Positions 3,375 through 3,480 of a stretch of 15,540 nucleotides of DNA are shown in pieces. The DNA comes from Escherichia coli (GTDB lineage Bacteria > Pseudomonadota > Gammaproteobacteria > Enterobacterales > Enterobacteriaceae): NCBI RefSeq assembly GCF_003334335.1, contig NZ_QOWQ01000059.1; one strand, 5' to 3'. How positions within the stretch are numbered: the stretch's first letter is position 1; each line of letters begins with the position of its first letter. The position numbers were made by a program, and so were the translations under genes. The notes beneath the pieces were generated by a model. It saw nothing but the letters and a program-made list of their open reading frames with translations, did not search any database and had not been told where the DNA came from.

Positions 3375-3440
3375 TTTTGTTTCCTCTCAGAAAGGGGGAG
3401 TTAACCTGTTGAAAGTACGGTGAACGCCCCCTCACCCTAA

Positions 3441-3463
3441 CCCTCTCCCCAAGGGGGCGAGGG
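3441..3463. terminator. GC-rich stem-loop between convergent hemB and tauD; possible bidirectional terminator or small intergenic repeat
   Basis: CCCTCTCCCC-aag-GGGGCGAGGG pairs as a ~10-bp stem with one internal mismatch and a 3-nt loop. It sits in the 106-bp gap between the hemB stop (3374) and the tauD stop (3481). No clean U-run on either side, so intrinsic-terminator function is uncertain. Confidence 0.35.
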
Positions 3464-3480
3464 GACCGTCCACTCTCGTA

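What the first reader, a model, noticed from the sequence alone, without database searches (positions are those of the whole stretch)
3416..3470. GC-rich dyad element between convergent hemB and tauD that is not a canonical intrinsic terminator
The sequence GCCCCCTCACCCTAACCCTCTCCCCAAGGGGGCGAGGGGACC folds into a stable GC stem-loop but has no flanking U-run in either orientation. It resembles small GC-rich intergenic repeat families more than a terminator, and may act as an RNA 3'-end stabiliser or a protein-binding site.
Basis: seen in the sequence. Interest (0 to 1): 0.3.

Follow-up and report, generated by a model that had tools for sequence, protein, structure and literature searches.

The report
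Known BoxC repeat between hemB and tauD
The GC-rich hairpin between the E. coli genes hemB and tauD is a catalogued copy of the BoxC repeat (also called PIT, TMECO or HPGQ), a dispersed element that can fold into a hairpin, triplex or G-quadruplex, so the finding is real but already known.

Summary
The quoted 42-nt sequence lies at 3426-3467 in the 106-nt spacer between convergent hemB (+) and tauD (-) of E. coli K-12. It folds stably and has no U-run on either strand.

It is not a simple dyad. On the minus strand, 3463..3429 matches the three-block consensus CCCTCNCCC-N3-6-GGGNGAGGG-N3-GGGNGAGGG, with 0 matches expected by chance. It is letter-for-letter TMECO no. 5 of Holder et al. 2015, which equals HPGQ no. 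13 of Kaplan et al. 2016. Both are names for the BoxC/PIT repeat, which has 23 copies in MG1655 and a median of 18 BLAST places per genome in 5,426 E. coli genomes.

The function of the family is unresolved. Published tests found no promoter or terminator activity. Published BCM data place Rho-dependent termination of hemB-strand transcription about 165 nt past the element, inside antisense tauD. Term-seq 3' ends lie 4-12 nt after three sister elements (two catalogued copies and one BoxC-like element) read in the same C-rich orientation, but none is listed at this copy.

My best reading is a known repeat that incidentally supplies a U-less hairpin to both 3' UTRs. The repeat-family guess was right; the function guesses remain unproven here.

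In 1,819 genomes the spacer instead carries an unrelated short hairpin.

Novelty: already known. Interest: low.

The parts
3429..3463 (-). BoxC / TMECO core, type A with one mismatch: CCCTCGCCC-CCTTG-GGGAGAGGG-TTA-GGGTGAGGG. The published 36-mer adds the G at 3428.
   Evidence: The only match to the TMECO consensus in the window, with 0 expected by chance. Identical to TMECO no. 5, NC_000913.3 388,664-388,699, and to HPGQ 13 with midpoint 388,688.
3455..3463 (-). Block 1, the C-rich 9-mer CCCTCGCCC. It pairs by Watson-Crick with block 2 with one central mismatch.
   Evidence: one mismatch against the reverse complement of block 2. Sequence read.
3441..3449 (-). Block 2, the purine 9-mer GGGAGAGGG. 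It is the central strand of the proposed triplex and a G-tract of the G4 motif.
   Evidence: Block scheme from PMC4666352.
3429..3437 (-). Block 3, GGGTGAGGG, the proposed Hoogsteen third strand. Reversed, it matches block 2 at 8 of 9 positions.
   Evidence: In-vitro triplex formation for type A mm oligonucleotides is published (PMC4666352).
3427..3450 (-). Canonical G-quadruplex motif GGGGAGAGGGTTAGGGTGAGGGGG. It is the only G3+N1-7 x4 motif in the 15.5-kb window.
   Evidence: Regex scan of both strands. Assigned to the HPG1 group by Kaplan et al..
3464..3471 (-). Family-conserved 5' flank GGACGGTC of the roughly 56-bp BoxC unit.
   Evidence: Shared by most of 17 K-12 copies; consensus ..CGGnCGGTC.
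3375..3424 (+). Locus-specific left half of the spacer. It is single copy and not part of the repeat.
   Evidence: BLAST finds one place per genome, and only in the roughly 3,600 genomes with the long allele.
2400..3374 (+). hemB (porphobilinogen synthase) CDS. Its 3' UTR carries the C-rich strand of BoxC.
   Evidence: RefSeq annotation of the identical MG1655 stretch.
3481..4332 (-). tauD (taurine dioxygenase) CDS. Its 3' UTR carries the G-rich strand of BoxC.
   Evidence: ORF list and RefSeq annotation.
3465..3524 (+). C-rich, G-poor tract (C 40%, G 17%) immediately downstream of BoxC in the hemB-sense RNA. It is rut-like.
   Evidence: Composition computed. Interpreting it as a rut site is inference.
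3628..3628 (+). Published best coordinate of a Rho termination region on the hemB strand (NC_000913.3 388,499, minus strand), inside antisense tauD. Resolution is low because the score uses 800-nt windows.
   Evidence: Adams et al. 2021, supplementary file 2: -BCM 86/33, +BCM 146/213, Rho score 3.80, p 2e-9. The coordinate was converted to window positions.

Best explanation
The element is one copy of the BoxC repeat of E. coli. The same repeat has been called PIT element, TMECO and HPGQ group HPG1. This copy is the one catalogued as TMECO no. 5 and HPGQ no. 13.

It is a roughly 56-bp dispersed intergenic repeat. Its core has one C-rich 9-mer and two G-rich 9-mers. As a single strand the core can fold as a hairpin, a purine-motif intrastrand triplex or a G-quadruplex. 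In duplex DNA it stays duplex.

It is not a terminator. I infer that it acts only incidentally at this locus. It places a stable hairpin without a U-tract in the 3' UTR of hemB (C-rich strand) and of tauD (G-rich strand). RNA polymerase transcribing hemB reads through it and is stopped by Rho inside antisense tauD; this step is shown by published BCM data. 3'-5' exonucleases would then trim back to the hairpin, which would define and protect the mature 3' end. This last step is inferred from sister copies and from the general rule of Dar & Sorek 2018. It is not shown for this copy.

The origin and spread of the repeat remain unexplained.
For: Identity:
- Exact match to the TMECO consensus, with 0 expected by chance.
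- The sequence CCCTCGCCCCCTTGGGGAGAGGGTTAGGGTGAGGGG is entry 5 of Table 1 in PMC4666352, at 388,664-388,699. That interval lies between tauD (ends 388,646) and hemB (starts 388,753) in NC_000913.3.
- Kaplan et al. list tauD>>>31 / midpoint 388,688 / 54<<<hemB.
- It is dispersed, with a median of 18 places per genome in 5,426 genomes.
- Its 5' flank GGACGGTC is shared with other K-12 copies.

Not a terminator:
- No U-tract.
- Family-level tests for promoter and terminator activity were negative.
- A Rho termination region lies at 388,499 on the hemB strand.

Protective-hairpin inference:
- Term-seq 3' ends lie 4 nt after TMECO 17 (lldD, 3,781,065), 12 nt after TMECO 7 (624,567) and 10 nt after a BoxC-like element (632,098). 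All three have the C-rich strand in the RNA.
- Rho-dependent transcripts generally end just after stable U-less stem-loops, with rut sites immediately downstream.
- A C-rich, G-poor tract lies at 3465-3524.
- The alternative allele, in 1,819 genomes, replaces the spacer with an unrelated 10-bp hairpin that also lacks a good U-tract. A hairpin is therefore kept at this position in both major alleles.
Against: - No curated Term-seq 3' end is listed at or near this copy, and hemB is absent from the curated 3'-end table. The protective role is therefore unobserved here.
- The plus-strand fold is not better than shuffles of the same composition (z about -1.1).
- The Rho coordinate has low resolution because it is computed from 800-nt windows.
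- tauD is not represented by any sense-strand 3' end in the tables I could search, so nothing is known for that side.
- Holder et al. argue for a DNA-level effect (genomic instability) rather than an RNA-level one.
- The three blocks are conserved across distant phyla. That conservation suggests a constraint that a merely incidental hairpin does not explain.
Confidence: 0.85

Rival explanations
1. It is a non-B DNA element that acts at the DNA level. When transiently single-stranded during replication or transcription it folds into a triplex or G-quadruplex. That stalls polymerases and makes the locus a hotspot of deletion and rearrangement. This is the Holder et al. 'source of genomic instability' model, and it is compatible with the best explanation.
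For: - Type A mm oligonucleotides form a triplex in vitro with Tm about 74 C, and polymerase stops before the motif in primer extension (PMC4666352).
- This locus is polymorphic, with three spacer alleles in 5,426 genomes.
- An acyltransferase gene present between hemB and tauD in strain VREC0864 and next to tauD in other genera is missing in most E. coli. In VREC0864 a BoxC pair lies at that gene's tauD-side junction.
Against: - In-vivo DMS footprinting did not detect the triplex, and with the complementary strand present the duplex forms.
- Hoyne & Maher found no in-vivo effect.
- The association with variability is correlative.
- I could not map deletion breakpoints to the BoxC element.
Confidence: 0.3
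2. It is a factor-independent, possibly bidirectional, transcription terminator for hemB and tauD that works without a U-tract.
For: - It sits between convergent genes, 54 nt after the hemB stop codon and 17 nt after the tauD stop codon.
- The hairpin is very stable.
- Six HPG1 copies lie between convergent genes, and Kaplan et al. speculate about a terminator role.
- A 3' end lies 4 nt after the sister copy downstream of lldD.
Against: - No U-tract in either direction.
- BCM-sensitive read-through shows that hemB-strand transcription crosses the element and ends by Rho downstream.
- The lldD 3' end is flagged 'Yes' in the column that follows its Rho score in the same dataset.
Confidence: 0.05
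3. It is a regulatory switch or protein-binding site. In this view the G-quadruplex/hairpin/duplex equilibrium is read by a protein and modulates expression of the flanking genes.
For: - Hairpin and G4 have similar stabilities in vitro (73 and 71 C), depending on the ion present.
- The three blocks are strongly conserved across remote taxa.
Against: - No match to known transcription-factor motifs.
- No common function among flanking genes.
- The element lies downstream of both genes here, not in a promoter.
- One third of E. coli genomes lack it at this locus, and 235 genomes carry a decayed copy.
Confidence: 0.08
4. It is a chance GC-rich palindrome unique to this spacer.
For: The plus-strand fold energy is unremarkable for its composition (z -1.1).
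Against: - 0 of 200 shuffles contain the pattern.
- A median of 18 places per genome.
- 23 catalogued copies in MG1655.
- Hundreds of copies in other phyla.
Confidence: 0.01

Closest known systems
BoxC repeat (Bergler et al. 1992; Bachellier et al. 1999), also called PIT element (Hoyne et al. 2000), TMECO (Holder et al. 2015, PMC4666352) and HPGQ group HPG1 (Kaplan et al. 2016, PMC5100583)
   Same: It is the same element. The core is letter-for-letter TMECO no. 5 (type A, one mismatch) and HPGQ no. 13. It is intergenic, has the TTA second loop and shares the 5' flank GGACGGTC.
   Different: The 3' flank is GGCGTT rather than the commonest GAA(A/C)AG. It is a solitary copy, without the type-B inverted partner and conserved spacer seen in five K-12 pairs.
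Protective 3' stem-loops of Rho-dependent transcripts (Dar & Sorek 2018, PMC6061677)
   Same: It is a stable stem-loop with no U-tract, followed directly by a C-rich, G-poor tract, with Rho-dependent termination further downstream.
   Different: No steady-state 3' end has been reported at this copy. The class is defined by function and not by sequence, so membership is unproven.
REP / BIME (PU) elements
   Same: Both are short GC-rich imperfect palindromes dispersed in E. coli intergenic regions, often between convergent genes. REPs are known to stabilise upstream mRNA against 3' exonucleases (own knowledge).
   Different: The sequence family is different. Rfam's REP-derived naRNA4 model hits two other places in the window but not this one. 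BoxC has a third block. No RAYT-type transposase is linked to it as far as I know.
Canonical intrinsic (Rho-independent) terminator
   Same: A GC-rich hairpin located just after stop codons.
   Different: It lacks the U-tract on both strands. The family is negative in published terminator assays.

Membership tests
BoxC / PIT / TMECO / HPG1 | Matches the consensus 5'-CCCTCNCCC N3-6 GGGNGAGGG N3 GGGNGAGGG-3' | tested here: met
   One match in the window, at 3463..3429 on the minus strand, with 0 in 200 shuffles.
BoxC / PIT / TMECO / HPG1 | Dispersed in many copies in the genome | tested here: met
   BLAST of 71 nt gives a median of 18 and a maximum of 34 places per genome in 5,426 E. coli genomes. 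Seventeen K-12 copies were fetched and aligned. Twenty-three copies are listed for MG1655.
BoxC / PIT / TMECO / HPG1 | Intergenic location | tested here: met
   It lies in the 106-nt spacer between hemB and tauD.
BoxC / PIT / TMECO / HPG1 | This copy is listed in the published catalogues at the same coordinates | tested here: met
   TMECO no. 5 at 388,664-388,699. HPGQ 13 with midpoint 388,688, tauD/hemB. Coordinates checked on NC_000913.3.
BoxC / PIT / TMECO / HPG1 | Shared flanks that extend the core to the roughly 56-bp BoxC unit | tested here: inconclusive
   The 5' flank GGACGGTC agrees with the consensus. The 3' flank GGCGTT departs from GAA(A/C)AG, as do 2 of the other 16 copies.
BoxC / PIT / TMECO / HPG1 | The single strand folds into an intrastrand purine-motif triplex and/or a G-quadruplex | not testable with these tools
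   The sequence rules are met: block 1 against block 2 has one mismatch, reversed block 3 matches block 2 at 8 of 9 positions, and a G3N3 x4 motif is present. Structures are published for consensus oligonucleotides only.
Intrinsic terminator | GC-rich stem-loop | tested here: met
   -19.9 to -31.6 kcal/mol.
Intrinsic terminator | U-tract directly after the stem | tested here: not met
   The terminator scan finds nothing at the element. The downstream sequences have no T-run of 4 or more.
Intrinsic terminator | Factor-independent termination activity | not testable with these tools
   The literature is negative for the family. Rho-dependent termination of the hemB strand lies downstream.
Protective stem-loop of a Rho-dependent transcript | Rho-dependent termination of the transcript that contains it | tested here: met
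   Published BCM table: region at 388,499 (-), Rho score 3.80, p 2e-9.
Protective stem-loop of a Rho-dependent transcript | Steady-state RNA 3' end immediately downstream of the stem | tested here: inconclusive
   None is listed at 388,650-388,709, and hemB is absent from the curated table. 3' ends are present at three sister elements. The raw reads were not available.
REP / BIME | Match to REP-derived models | tested here: not met
   Rfam naRNA4 (REP) hits are at 13322-13399 and 15428-15503 only.

The most novel reading that the evidence does not exclude
BoxC may be more than a passive repeat. In the C-rich orientation it could be a combined module for Rho-terminated genes: a protective hairpin plus a single-stranded C-rich (rut-like) block. 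The conservation of all three 9-mers, from Enterobacteria to Burkholderiales and Methylomirabilota with lineage-specific loops and flanks, might then reflect a conserved structure-specific process that generates or selects the element. At this locus it would set the hemB and tauD 3' ends, interchangeably with the unrelated hairpin found in one third of E. coli.
Probability: 0.15. Interest if true: 0.45.

Novelty: already known. Interest (0 to 1): 0.12.

Why it matters
It matters little as a discovery, because this exact copy has already been published under four names.

It is useful as a worked example. A U-less GC hairpin between convergent E. coli genes should first be checked against the BoxC and REP repeat families before any new function is proposed.

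The open question is the function and origin of BoxC, which have been unresolved since 1992. The natural allele series at this locus offers a ready-made test of whether BoxC shapes mRNA 3' ends or only destabilises the DNA. The series comprises:
- the BoxC allele,
- the decayed-BoxC allele,
- the unrelated-hairpin allele.

Tried and rejected
1. Relic inverted partner. The direct repeat CCTCTCAGAAAGGGGG (3383-3398) against CCTCTCCCCAAGGGGG (3442-3457) suggested a decayed second BoxC. I rejected this for two reasons:
- The five K-12 pairs share a conserved spacer GAACAGGCCAGCACTGGTGCGAA that is absent here.
- The left half of the spacer is single copy.

2. Simple insertion. I looked for an empty site to define insertion boundaries or target-site duplications. 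The BoxC-free allele differs over the whole spacer, so no boundaries could be read.

3. Deletion breakpoints. blastn-short of the K-12 and short-allele spacers against the acyltransferase-containing loci found only BoxC-to-BoxC matches and the gene ends. It did not map breakpoints.

4. Rfam. No family covers the element. The only hits in the window are two REP-type naRNA4 matches elsewhere.

5. 3'-end datasets other than Adams et al. No supplementary tables were held for Dar & Sorek 2018, the Term-seq 3'-UTR valve paper, the 3'-seq comparison preprint or the Nanopore paper. The SEnd-seq paper was not in the library.

6. Taxonomic scan. It shows spread to distant phyla but gives no census.

7. 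Literature after 2016. A search for TMECO or intrastrand triplex found no paper that resolves the function.

Full report
**Observation**

The window is E. coli K-12. A 901-nt stretch around the finding is 100% identical to MG1655-type chromosomes. hemB (plus strand) ends at 3374 and tauD (minus strand) ends at 3481, leaving a 106-nt convergent spacer.

It contains two inverted repeats: 3428-3437/3455-3464 at 90% complementarity, and 3425-3432/3452-3459 at 100%.

- As RNA, the hemB-sense strand folds at -19.9 to -23.3 kcal/mol. This is no better than shuffles of the same composition (z about -1.1).
- The tauD-sense strand folds at -31.6 kcal/mol (z -2.9 to -3.3).
- Neither strand has a T-run after the stem, and the terminator scan reports nothing at the element.

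**What it is**

Read on the minus strand, 3463..3429 is CCCTCGCCC-CCTTG-GGGAGAGGG-TTA-GGGTGAGGG. This is the only match in the window to the three-block consensus CCCTCNCCC-N3-6-GGGNGAGGG-N3-GGGNGAGGG, and none of 200 shuffles contains one.

That consensus defines 'TMECO' in Holder et al. 2015 (PMC4666352). The authors equate TMECO with the BoxC repeat of the 1990s and with the PIT (potential intrastrand triplex) elements of Hoyne and Maher.

- Their Table 1 lists 23 copies in MG1655. Entry 5 is CCCTCGCCCCCTTGGGGAGAGGGTTAGGGTGAGGGG, type 'A mm', at 388,664-388,699.
- In NC_000913.3, tauD ends at 388,646 and hemB starts at 388,753, so entry 5 is this element.
- Kaplan et al. 2016 (PMC5100583) independently list it as HPGQ no. 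13 of group HPG1: tauD >>> 31 nt, midpoint 388,688, 54 nt <<< hemB.
- It is also the only canonical G-quadruplex motif in the 15.5-kb window, at 3427-3450 on the minus strand.

**The family, tested here**

- A 71-nt query spanning the element finds a median of 18 and up to 34 places per genome in 5,426 complete E. coli genomes.
- I fetched 12 other K-12 loci holding 16 further copies. The cores are nearly identical, and the similarity extends into a 5' flank (..CGGnCGGTC) and a short 3' flank (GAA(A/C)AG). This gives a unit of roughly 56-60 bp, in line with the published BoxC length.
- This copy has the 5' flank GGACGGTC but a deviant 3' flank, GGCGTT.
- The left half of the spacer (3372-3424) is single copy and locus-specific.
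- The K-12 inverted pairs share a conserved spacer that is absent here. The short direct repeat at 3383-3398 is therefore not a relic partner.
Within about five genomes it had already found 145 strict copies in Mitsuaria chitosanitabida, 13 in a Methylomirabilota MAG and smaller numbers in two other MAGs. The three 9-mers are kept, while loops and flanks are lineage-specific. This agrees with the wide distribution reported by Holder et al..

**What is known about function**

[quoted passage not shown] With the complementary strand present the duplex forms, and in-vivo DMS footprinting did not detect the triplex. Kaplan et al. show a hairpin/G-quadruplex equilibrium that depends on the ion present, again lost when the complement is added.

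Hoyne and Maher found that PIT elements block DNA polymerase in vitro. They found no promoter or terminator activity, no effect on RNA polymerase and no effect in vivo. Holder et al. report higher sequence variability around the elements and propose genomic instability. I found no later paper that resolves the function.

**Transcript ends at this locus**

In Adams et al. 2021 (PMC7815308), supplementary file 2 lists a Rho termination region whose best coordinate is 388,499 on the minus strand, antisense to tauD.

- Read counts upstream/downstream are 86/33 without bicyclomycin and 146/213 with it.
- The Rho score is 3.80 and p is 2e-9.
- This corresponds to about window position 3628 on the hemB strand, roughly 165 nt past the element.

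So hemB-strand transcription crosses BoxC and is ended by Rho further on. The score uses 800-nt windows, so the coordinate is approximate. The 60 nt just after the element on that strand are C-rich and G-poor (40% C, 17% G), as expected of a rut region.

The curated Term-seq table has no 3' end at 388,650-388,709 and does not mention hemB. For three sister elements read in the same C-rich orientation it does list 3' ends:

- 3,781,065 (+), 'primary' for lldD, 4 nt after the core of TMECO 17. It is flagged 'Yes' in the column that follows its Rho score.
- 624,567 (-), 12 nt after TMECO 7.
- 632,098 (+), 10 nt after a BoxC-like element.

The G-rich strand never appears next to a listed 3' end. 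Dar and Sorek 2018 showed that Rho-dependent transcripts end just downstream of stable stem-loops that lack a U-tract. These stem-loops protect against PNPase and RNase II, and rut sites lie immediately downstream.

**Most likely mechanism**

Shown:
- The element is a BoxC copy.
- It lacks terminator features.
- hemB-strand transcription ends by Rho beyond it.

Inferred: the hairpin is where exonucleolytic trimming stops, so it would define and protect the hemB 3' end and, in the other orientation, the tauD 3' end. I rate the identity at about 0.97 and the RNA-level role at this copy at about 0.4. Nothing suggests that the element was selected for this role.

**Population and evolutionary context**

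The spacer has three alleles in 5,426 genomes:

- The K-12 allele with an intact BoxC, in about 3,366 genomes.
- An allele with 51 extra nt and a decayed BoxC that no longer fits the consensus, in 235 genomes.
- A 39-nt spacer without BoxC, in 1,819 genomes. It carries an unrelated 10-bp hairpin (AUGCCGGGUU/AACCCGGCAU, -16.7 kcal/mol, z -3.9) and also lacks a good U-tract.

The alleles differ over the whole spacer, so BoxC is not a clean insertion here.

In E. coli VREC0864 an acyltransferase gene of about 575 codons lies between hemB and tauD. In Lelliottia and one metagenomic relative the same kind of gene lies next to tauD. In VREC0864 a BoxC pair lies at the acyltransferase/tauD junction, and in Lelliottia decayed BoxC-like sequences lie in the same spacer.

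Most E. coli have therefore lost this gene, and BoxC elements recur downstream of tauD. This fits the reported association with rearranged loci, but I could not map the breakpoints to the element.

**Verdict**

The feature is real and more than chance, but it is a known and catalogued repeat.

- The 3'-end stabiliser idea is reasonable and has indirect support from sister copies, but it is unproven here.
- The protein-binding idea has no support.

Novelty: already known. Interest: low.

Noticed in passing
window 13322-13399 (-) and 15428-15503 (+): Two matches above gathering score to Rfam naRNA4 (RF02564), a model built on REP-type repeats. A second, different family of intergenic palindromic repeats is therefore present in the window.
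   Followed up: no
L003/L005 176-214 (hemB-tauD spacer of strains 2012C-4221 and HS13-1): 1,819 of 5,426 E. coli genomes have a 39-nt spacer without BoxC. It carries an unrelated 10-bp hairpin AUGCCGGGUU-AUCC-AACCCGGCAU (-16.7 kcal/mol, z -3.9), again without a proper U-tract.
   Followed up: partly
L004 176-332 (strain DETEC-S565): 235 genomes carry a third allele. It has 51 extra nt right after the BoxC core, beginning with a diverged duplicate of the flank GACCGTCCACTCTCG. G-to-A changes make the BoxC fail the consensus.
   Followed up: partly
L144 302-2091 (E. coli VREC0864); L141, L142, L143: In VREC0864 a lysophospholipid acyltransferase-family gene of about 575 codons lies between hemB and tauD. 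In other Enterobacteriaceae such a gene lies next to tauD. Most E. coli lack it. In L144 a BoxC pair lies at 2003-2037 (-) and 2058-2091 (+), and the first copy overlaps the last 24 nt of the acyltransferase CDS.
   Followed up: partly
L137, L138, L139 (K-12 BoxC pairs 7+8, 10+11, 12+13): Inverted type A/type B pairs share a conserved 26-28-nt spacer, GAACAGGCCAGCACTGGTGCGAAnATT. The pairs therefore look like one composite unit of about 100 bp rather than two independent insertions.
   Followed up: partly
L008-L015 and L137-L140, 20 nt 5' of each core: The 5' flank of K-12 copies is conserved further out than the published core. It is A-rich at -20..-16 in 12-13 of 17 copies, followed by G/C-rich positions down to CGGTC.
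   Followed up: no
L025-L131 (Mitsuaria chitosanitabida), L017-L024 (Methylomirabilota MAG): The strict three-block pattern occurs at least 145 times in a betaproteobacterium and 13 times in a Methylomirabilota MAG, often as inverted pairs. The three 9-mers are the same, but loops and flanks are lineage-specific.
   Followed up: partly
NC_000913.3 3,781,065 (+), 624,567 (-), 632,098 (+) (Adams et al. 2021, supplementary file 1): In the curated Term-seq table, only the C-rich strand of BoxC appears next to RNA 3' ends (4 occurrences). The G-rich strand appears 0 times. This could reflect biology or a reverse-transcription bias against G-rich structures.
   Followed up: partly
window 3580-3607 (+): A weak terminator-like site, GCGGTTATCCCAAATCGC followed by AATATCATTT, lies on the hemB strand inside antisense tauD. 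It is about 20-50 nt upstream of the published Rho-region coordinate. The count of such sites is at chance level (1 found, 1.1 expected).
   Followed up: no
L014 1-60 and 181-250 (yjdP-phnP spacer of K-12): Besides the intact BoxC, the flanks hold further degenerate BoxC-like stretches (CCCCTCACCCCAATGGGGAGAGGG) and a long C-rich run. This suggests several generations of the repeat at one locus.
   Followed up: no
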